The notes beneath the pieces are model-generated. The model saw only the letters and a program-made list of their open reading frames with translations. It was not told the DNA's origin and did no database searches. From assembly GCF_018977255.1 (NCBI RefSeq), contig NW_024704742.1:124002001-124066000 (forward strand): a stretch of DNA of 64,000 bases, in the 5' to 3' direction. The DNA comes from Callorhinchus milii. Lineage: Eukaryota. Each line of letters opens with the position of its first letter. Position 1 is the first letter of the stretch. The position numbers and the translations under genes were made by a program. Positions 1,860 to 2,460 of the stretch are shown piece by piece.

Positions 1860-2460
1860 AGCACCCTGGGCTCAATCACCCTTCCCCGCATCCCGTTCCA
1901 GTTGCTAATTACCCTCTGGATAAAGAAAAACCTCTTGTTGTCTGTCCTGAAACTGCTCTTTTCAACTCTAAACCTGGATCCTCTTGTACTGTCTTGTTAT
2001 ATCTGAAAATATTGTTCTGGATCCACTTTTTTAATCCTGTTTAAAATGTTATATGCTTTATAAGATCCCCTCTATAAGGTCATCTCCTTTCTAGAGAACC
2101 CTAGTATGTCTAATCATTGCTTATAGCTCATTCAACAACAACAACAACTTGCACTTATATAGTGCCCTCCACGCCAGGCAGCATCCCAGAGTGCTCTTGA
2201 TCCAGATTATCCATACACTTACAGCCCTAGTTGGCTAAGACAACGATCACTGAAACAACAAAAGCTCCTCAAACCATGTTGATCATTTTGTCCAACTGCA
2301 CAAATAAACATTCCTCTAACACTGGGGATTATCTTCATTGTCTCCTCTGCACTCTTTAGGGCTTGAGCAACTCTATTATGTTCCAGTGAGTGGAACTGAA
2401 TGCAGTACTCTAGGTACAGCCTGCCCAGAGCACTAGTTAGCTTGTTCACTTATGGTTATC
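1860..2460 (-). mobile_element. Decayed CR1 3' fragment interrupted by the 2134-2308 insertion
   Basis: Reverse strand reads ALGRLYLEYCIQF (compare RPHLEYCVQFW); colinear with the CR1 remnant at 8890-9700. Confidence 0.65.
2203..2308 (-). pseudogene. Non-functional duplicate of pseudo-protease exon 1 (5'UTR + exon 1 + start of intron 1)
   Basis: Ungapped 106-bp match to 2858-2963 with 12 mismatches by my count; reads MV*GAFVVSVIVVLAN*G with two stop codons. Confidence 0.88.

What the first reader, a model, noticed from the sequence alone, without database searches (positions are those of the whole stretch)
2129..2313. Chimeric retro-insertion: granzyme 5' end fused to a LINE/SINE 3' tail, flanked by a CATTC target-site duplication, inside the gene's own intron 2
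Seen in sequence: 2134-2308 interrupts a CR1 remnant (compare the uninterrupted copy near 9165-9215) and is flanked by CATTC at 2129-2133 and 2309-2313. On the minus strand it consists of a 106-bp, about 89% identical copy of 5'UTR + exon 1 + the first ~20 nt of intron 1, followed by an L2-type 3' end ending in (TTG)n. The copy's 5' end maps to about 2963, 24 nt downstream of the start of the TATA-like CATAAAA, i.e. near a plausible transcription start. Inference: the L2 reverse transcriptase switched template from retroelement RNA to unspliced granzyme pre-mRNA. This would imply germline-accessible transcription and would record the TSS.
Basis: partly seen in the sequence, partly recalled or inferred. 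Interest (0 to 1): 0.7.

Follow-up and report, generated by a model that had tools for sequence, protein, structure and literature searches.

The report
LINE stub carrying local exon copy
A tiny piece of a jumping gene landed in an intron of a granzyme-like gene and brought along a dead 106-base copy of that gene's first exon from 550 bases away, a real but already described by-product of retrotransposon insertion whose template (DNA or the gene's unfinished RNA) is still open.

Summary
The structure is real. A 175-bp insert (2134-2308), bounded by CATTC repeats, splits an older LINE remnant in intron 2 of a granzyme A/K-like gene. It holds a 106-bp copy of 2858-2963 (94 of 106 identical, two stops), a 7-nt linker and a 62-nt LINE 3' end with a (GTT)5 tail. 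An independent DNA contig carries copy and donor together.

One insertion event is likely (about 0.9). The donor lies 550 bp away, so the template acted in cis; a diffusible RNA, as in U6/LINE chimeras, is effectively excluded.

DNA template (0.5): 5' extra sequence copied from flanks is published for L2. The target end matches the donor at 2980-2971 (8 of 10). The TATA-like box predicts +1 near 2956, inside the copy, and 2963 is a poor start base.

Nascent pre-mRNA (0.35): sense orientation, upstream donor, unspliced intron, end near the promoter. One human L1 precedent exists.

That the copy records the start site, or shows germline transcription, is not established. New member of a known kind.

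The parts
2129..2133 (+). Target-site duplication, copy next to the LINE tail (CATTC)
   Evidence: single CACTC in the uninterrupted repeat copy
2134..2148 (-). Simple-repeat tail of the LINE, five GTT units
2149..2195 (-). 5'-truncated 3' end of a LINE family (L2-type by recall) or of a SINE sharing its tail
   Evidence: 48 of 59 and 47 of 59 to copies at 54308 and 42546; alignment; family copies continue differently beyond 2195
2196..2202 (-). 7-nt linker at the internal junction; donor and LINE share CTGT/CTGTT here, but the junction is not the clean join
2203..2308 (-). Dead copy of donor 2963-2858: 31 nt upstream of ATG, exon 1 coding part with two stops, splice donor and 20 nt of intron 1
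   Evidence: 94 of 106 identical
2309..2313 (+). Target-site duplication at the 5' junction (CATTC)
2309..2318 (-). Target flank that matches donor 2980-2971 at 8 of 10 (possible annealing site)
1909..2438 (-). Older LINE remnant (CR1-type by recall) interrupted by the insert
   Evidence: empty site aligns to 8986-9310 at 66% over 360 columns, E 6e-22
2858..2963 (-). Donor segment: 5' end of granzyme-like gene A (ATG 2932, exon 1 ends 2878)
2981..2987 (-). TATA-like CATAAAA; function untested
   Evidence: pyrimidine-purine steps at 27, 31 and 33 nt downstream
2649..2799 (-). Gene A exon 2, trypsin-family, with Ser in place of the catalytic His
1101..1251 (-). Gene A exon 3; joined to exon 2 in contigs of X5 and X6

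Best explanation
One target-primed insertion of a LINE (L2-type) into intron 2 was cut short after about 62 nt. Its 5' end was then joined through sequence copied from chromosomal DNA about 550-670 bp upstream. Most simply, the free target end annealed to a partly matching stretch in the promoter (2980-2971), was extended through exon 1 into intron 1, let go, and paired with the end of the LINE cDNA where donor and LINE share a few bases. The result is a 5-bp duplication around a copy-plus-tail insert, which has since decayed neutrally. Shown: the parts, the duplication, the interrupted host repeat and the local donor. Inferred: a single event (about 0.9), a template in cis (about 0.85 overall), DNA rather than RNA (0.5 overall), and the order of annealing steps.
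For: Duplication and empty-site alignment. The donor is 550 bp away; an RNA acting in trans would land within 1 kb with chance about 2e-6 (genome size taken as 0.9 Gb from run sizes). Zebrafish ZfL2-1 makes 5-bp duplications, and a large share of the 5' extra nucleotides of ZfL2-2 come from flanking sequence (PMC4245944; PMC4760211); about 40% of ZfL2-2 copies carry 5' extra nucleotides (PMC2666801). Human L1 insertions with nearby genomic DNA: 3 cases in PMC11702581, 22 in bioRxiv 2024.08.27.596794. Target flank matches donor 2980-2971 at 8 of 10 with three terminal matches; 1002 of 127980 window 10-mers do as well in any of 21 registers, and 2010 reach 8 of 10. In mouse, TATA boxes sit at -32 to -29 with a pyrimidine-purine start, and motifs closer than -28 are mostly non-functional (PMC1779604); here that points to G2956, whereas 2963 is T preceded by C. 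A second local copy, 45 bp inverted and 1.9 kb from its source with no link to a gene start, lies at 7910-7954.
Against: The copy ends within about 10 nt of the predicted start, in sense orientation and from upstream, which a DNA template does not require (roughly 1 in 100 by position alone; my estimate). The annealing reading needs an extra 7-nt loss between two TTTA repeats, and a gapped extension score was matched by 5505 of 20000 random flanks. A 9-of-10 match at 3046 on the other strand was not used. The published L1 templates mostly lie within 15 bp of the site, far closer than here. The internal junction is not the clean microhomology join. The start site is not measured.
Confidence: 0.5

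Rival explanations
1. Template switch in cis onto the nascent, unspliced pre-mRNA of the host gene. The LINE reverse transcriptase, working in intron 2 while the gene was transcribed, jumped to the tethered RNA 20 nt into intron 1 and copied to or near the cap.
For: Sense orientation, donor upstream of the site, intron kept, and end close to the promoter are all predicted. No microhomology at the 2963 junction as read without a gap; the last G of the duplication could equally be a cap-derived G with a 4-bp duplication (sequence; cap copying recalled). An X5 contig bridges intron 1 (2770-2907) and an X6 contig runs 7 nt into it, so intron-1-containing RNA may be available, though DNA in these libraries is not excluded. 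Precedent: one L1 insertion with co-inserted local precursor mRNA (PMC10191854); L2 template switching to U6 in platypus and lizard (PMC4476161). 8 of 9 transitions are A>G or C>T on the sense strand (p 0.006), as transcription-linked asymmetry would give if all arose in the copy; they are not polarised.
Against: Needs transcription of an immune-type gene in the germline or early embryo; untested. 2963 is not a pyrimidine-purine start and lies 24 nt from the TATA-like box. The 8-of-10 flank match upstream would be coincidence (p about 0.01-0.02), unless transcripts start at or above about 2980.
Confidence: 0.35
2. Donor elsewhere: a closer paralogous exon 1, or a source locus with a LINE tail 20 nt into intron 1 whose read-through RNA was retroposed (5' transduction or a SINE-like chimera).
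For: 7 of the 12 differences fall in 14 bp (p 0.003 with a window chosen afterwards) and 10 of 12 in the coding part (Fisher p 0.03), which fits a converted or different donor. Elephant shark has five granzyme A/K genes (PMC4646688); the window shows two, and the cluster may continue to the left.
Against: Landing 550 bp from the homologous exon is improbable for a distant donor. Gene B exon 1 is unlike the copy. The coding changes include two stops and are 7 non-synonymous or nonsense to 3 synonymous (counted), as for neutral decay. At codons 3, 4 and 13 the local gene, not the copy, agrees with homologue P0014.
Confidence: 0.08
3. Two separate events: a local duplication of the exon 1 region and an unrelated LINE tail inserted beside it.
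For: Local templated copies occur in this window without a fused tail insertion being evident (7910-7954). The tail could not be dated independently: 80-81% to two window copies that are 43 of 59 alike to each other.
Against: One 5-bp duplication brackets both parts at the exact boundaries (chance about 0.0013) and the host repeat closes up without loss; parts are in the same orientation and 7 nt apart.
Confidence: 0.07

Closest known systems
5' extra nucleotides of L2-clade LINEs (ZfL2-1, ZfL2-2), annealing pathway of 5'-end joining (PMC4245944, PMC4760211; passages read)
   Same: 5'-truncated element, 5-bp duplication, extra sequence at the 5' junction taken from the flank, short homologies at junctions
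   Different: Here the extra piece is 106 bp from 550 bp away and is a first exon; the papers' passages speak of 'several' nucleotides, and I could not read the primary study of their origin
Human L1 insertions with templated local genomic DNA (PMC11702581; bioRxiv 2024.08.27.596794; passages read)
   Same: Duplicate of nearby DNA, under 250 bp, fused to the LINE within one insertion
   Different: L1 and somatic; templates mostly within 15 bp of the site; longer duplications of the target
L1 insertion with co-inserted local precursor mRNA (PMC10191854; passages read)
   Same: Unspliced local gene sequence co-inserted with the element
   Different: One somatic L1 case; here germline-inherited, a different LINE clade, RNA template unproven
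U6/L2 and U6/Mon-1 chimeras of platypus and lizard (PMC4476161; passages read)
   Same: Host sequence 5' of a short L2 3' end, same orientation, small duplication (1-9 bp)
   Different: Diffusible small RNA acting in trans, dispersed and recurrent; here a single local gene segment
mRNA/LINE-1 5' chimeras (bioRxiv 2025.02.02.635956; abstract and section 24 read)
   Same: First exon in sense orientation 5' of a LINE, inside one duplication
   Different: Those are mostly spliced, often end at splice donors and sit on near full-length L1; here 20 nt of intron are kept, the LINE is 62 nt and the site is the donor gene itself

Membership tests
LINE insertion with locally templated 5' extra sequence | One target-site duplication around extra sequence plus LINE 3' end | tested here: met
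LINE insertion with locally templated 5' extra sequence | Intact LINE 3' terminus with simple-repeat tail, 5'-truncated | tested here: met
LINE insertion with locally templated 5' extra sequence | Extra sequence matches DNA near the site | tested here: met
   550 bp away, 94 of 106
LINE insertion with locally templated 5' extra sequence | Short homology at the joints (annealing) | tested here: inconclusive
   8 of 10 at the 5' joint, p about 0.01-0.02 by count but 5505 of 20000 by gapped score; 4-5 nt shared at the internal joint
L2 clade | Tail belongs to a family with an L2-clade reverse transcriptase | tested here: inconclusive
   Window copies of related repeats carry RVT_1 (45735-46256; linked by self-BLAST); clade name is recalled, no repeat library or tree was run
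L2 clade | Conserved 3' stem-loop | tested here: inconclusive
   Folding not better than shuffles: z 0.55 and -0.18 for the insert, 0.32 and -1.06 for two relatives
Template-switch chimeric retrocopy (U6/LINE type) | Both parts in the same orientation inside one duplication | tested here: met
Template-switch chimeric retrocopy (U6/LINE type) | RNA partner acts in trans; site unlinked to the donor gene | tested here: not met
   donor 550 bp away
Template-switch chimeric retrocopy (U6/LINE type) | Copy confined to transcribed sequence and ending at the RNA 5' end | not testable with these tools
   only contigs available; they cannot show a start
Processed retrocopy or trans-spliced mRNA/LINE chimera | Introns removed, or fusion at a splice donor | tested here: not met
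   20 nt of intron 1 follow the donor site
New SINE-like family | Several dispersed copies | tested here: inconclusive
   one copy in the 64-kb window; no whole genome held

The most novel reading that the evidence does not exclude
A stringent L2-type reverse transcriptase, inserting into a gene being transcribed in the germline of a cartilaginous fish, jumped onto that gene's tethered nascent RNA and copied it to the cap. The insert would then be a fossil of co-transcriptional LINE integration and of germline transcription of a catalytically dead granzyme-like gene. Unchecked notes on RAP1GDS1 and NAF1 in this genome hint that such cis captures recur, which would allow a genome-wide DNA-versus-RNA test.
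Probability: 0.3. Interest if true: 0.5.

Novelty: new member of a known kind. Interest (0 to 1): 0.27.

Why it matters
As a single dead insertion it matters little, and no effect on the gene is shown. Its value is mechanistic: it is a natural, inherited example of an unusually long local capture at a LINE 5' junction in a lineage where I found no such report (searches, listings only). If many such captures were collected, their orientation and end points relative to genes would tell whether L2-type enzymes copy nearby DNA or nascent RNA.

Tried and rejected
Assembly artefact: rejected, contigs of X1 and X3 carry the internal and right junctions. Gene B as donor: rejected. Structured RNA: no Rfam match at E up to 1 in 1800-3300; tail folding not better than shuffles. 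Start site from RNA: no RNA holder is on record; 4 of 24 listed runs were laid. X5 has no cover at 3000-3074 and X6 none above 2849; bin arithmetic puts the X5 exon-1 contig end at 2954 or 2979 depending on an assumption I could not check. This is one study and contigs cannot show a start, so it is not used. X5 has no cover in three intron-2 bins, which would argue against DNA carry-over, but missing cover is not evidence. Paralogue search: X1 depth at 2850-2999 equals its single contig and no second long piece over 2149-2308 is listed, but the tables were cut and contigs show presence only. Protein searches with exon 2 did not return gene A or a close paralogue: 2 hits among 4 candidates; 150 of 571 listed, mostly multi-domain proteases; 7 hits were read. 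Gapped test of the upstream match: not significant. Use of the copied splice donor: no such joint among the 15 shown of 586. Granzyme expression in germ cells: nothing usable in 15 listed of 575 papers; mammalian testis granzymes are recalled only. Kajikawa 2012 not held. Earlier notes near the place or by sequence: none.

Full report
Observation. CATTC stands at 2129-2133 and 2309-2313 around a 175-bp insert. Read on the minus strand, the insert is a 106-bp copy of 2963-2858 (94 identical, no gaps), a 7-nt linker, 47 nt of a LINE 3' end and five GTT units. Removing it restores an older repeat that aligns across the junction to the copy at 8986-9310 (E 6e-22; score 145 against a maximum of 39 in 300 shuffles). 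A contig from run X3 spans 2149-3290 and so holds copy and donor together; X1 confirms two junctions (one study). The structure is not an assembly error.

Setting. The donor is the 5' end of a trypsin-family gene: ATG at 2932, exon 1 to 2878, a 78-nt intron 1, exon 2 at 2799-2649 and exon 3 at 1251-1101. Exon 2 matches granzymes M, K and A and factor D among solved structures. A second, canonical gene lies at about 14490-8307. Contigs of X5 and X6 join exon 2 to exon 3. Earlier notes name the genome as elephant shark (not checked by me), for which five granzyme A/K genes are reported (PMC4646688, passages). The labels L2 and CR1 are recalled; related repeats in the window carry a reverse transcriptase domain.

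One event. A single 5-bp duplication brackets both parts, with chance about 0.0013 at fixed boundaries. Five base pairs is the length reported for zebrafish ZfL2-1 (PMC4245944, abstract and passages). The copy has two stops and a neutral-looking mix of changes. The tail could not be dated, because the family is diverse.

The template acted in cis. The donor is 550 bp from the site. A diffusible RNA would land within 1 kb with chance about 2e-6. This separates the case from U6/L2 chimeras (PMC4476161, passages) and from mRNA/L1 chimeras, which are mostly spliced and on near full-length elements (bioRxiv 2025.02.02.635956, section 24). What remains is nearby DNA or the tethered nascent RNA.

For DNA. 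A large share of the 5' extra nucleotides of ZfL2-2 come from flanking sequence, through annealing of the element and target ends (the primary paper was not held). Human L1 also co-inserts nearby DNA. Here the last 10 nt of the target flank match donor 2980-2971 at 8 of 10, and the next four bases match too, if the copy lost 7 nt between two TTTA repeats. By counting, 1002 of 127980 window 10-mers do as well; by a gapped score 5505 of 20000 random flanks do, so this is suggestive only. Mouse data place TATA boxes at -32 to -29 with a pyrimidine-purine start (PMC1779604, passages). Applied here, +1 would be G2956, inside the copy, while 2963 is T after C. Donor and LINE share 4-5 nt at the internal joint, though the joint is not the clean product. 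Another local copy, 45 bp and inverted, lies at 7910-7954.

For nascent RNA. The copy is in sense orientation, from upstream, unspliced, and ends near the promoter, all of which this model predicts. An X5 contig bridges intron 1 and an X6 contig enters it, so such RNA may exist; DNA carry-over is not excluded. One somatic L1 insertion with local precursor mRNA is published (PMC10191854, passages). Eight of nine transitions run A>G or C>T on the sense strand (p 0.006), but they are not polarised. The model needs germline transcription, for which I have no data.

Unexplained. Seven of 12 differences lie in 14 bp of the coding part (p 0.003, window chosen afterwards). A multi-base mutation, error-prone synthesis, or later conversion of the donor are possible; a closer paralogue outside the window is not excluded, as no whole genome was held.

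Verdict. One LINE insertion with a locally templated 5' extension: DNA 0.5, nascent RNA 0.35, distant donor 0.08, two steps 0.07. These weights are my judgement, not computed. The kind is known; length, distance and first-exon content are unusual. I found no report for cartilaginous fish in the listings. Unchecked notes describe similar local captures in this genome; they are leads, not support. Interest 0.27.

Noticed in passing
window 2649-2799 and 1101-1251, minus strand: Gene A has Ser at the catalytic His position (TAASC) and MTRSG where IIGG is usual, yet is spliced in two runs. Unnamed homologues P0129 (TAASC) and P0014 (TAANC, TSANC) also lack the His. This suggests a conserved catalytically dead granzyme A/K branch; the likeness to azurocidin is recalled. 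Exons 4-5 lie outside the window. Possibly more interesting than the insertion.
   Followed up: partly
window 7910-7954 and 9813-9857: 45-bp inverted copy (44 of 45 identical), 1.9 kb from its source, which spans a LINE tail and its flank; next to a 30-bp tandem duplication at 7967-8025.
   Followed up: partly
window 2800-2877: The 78-nt intron 1 is bridged by an X5 contig with exactly 30 nt of exon on each side, and an X6 contig enters it by 7 nt: possible intron retention; the intron has in-frame stops.
   Followed up: partly
window 2217-2222, minus strand: The copy keeps the GTAAGT splice donor in sense orientation inside intron 2; use as a cryptic donor was not seen in the joints shown (table cut).
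   Followed up: partly
window 54308-54366: Another tail of this family is truncated at nearly the same base as the insert and abuts the end of a different repeat, suggesting a preferred truncation point.
   Followed up: no
window 29745-30254: Tandem pair of about 250 bp, 70% alike, not matching other window repeats.
   Followed up: no
window 25025-25400 and 60094-63702: Reading frames that look like ESM1 and a CSPG4-like gene (names recalled), the neighbours expected of the granzyme A/K locus.
   Followed up: no
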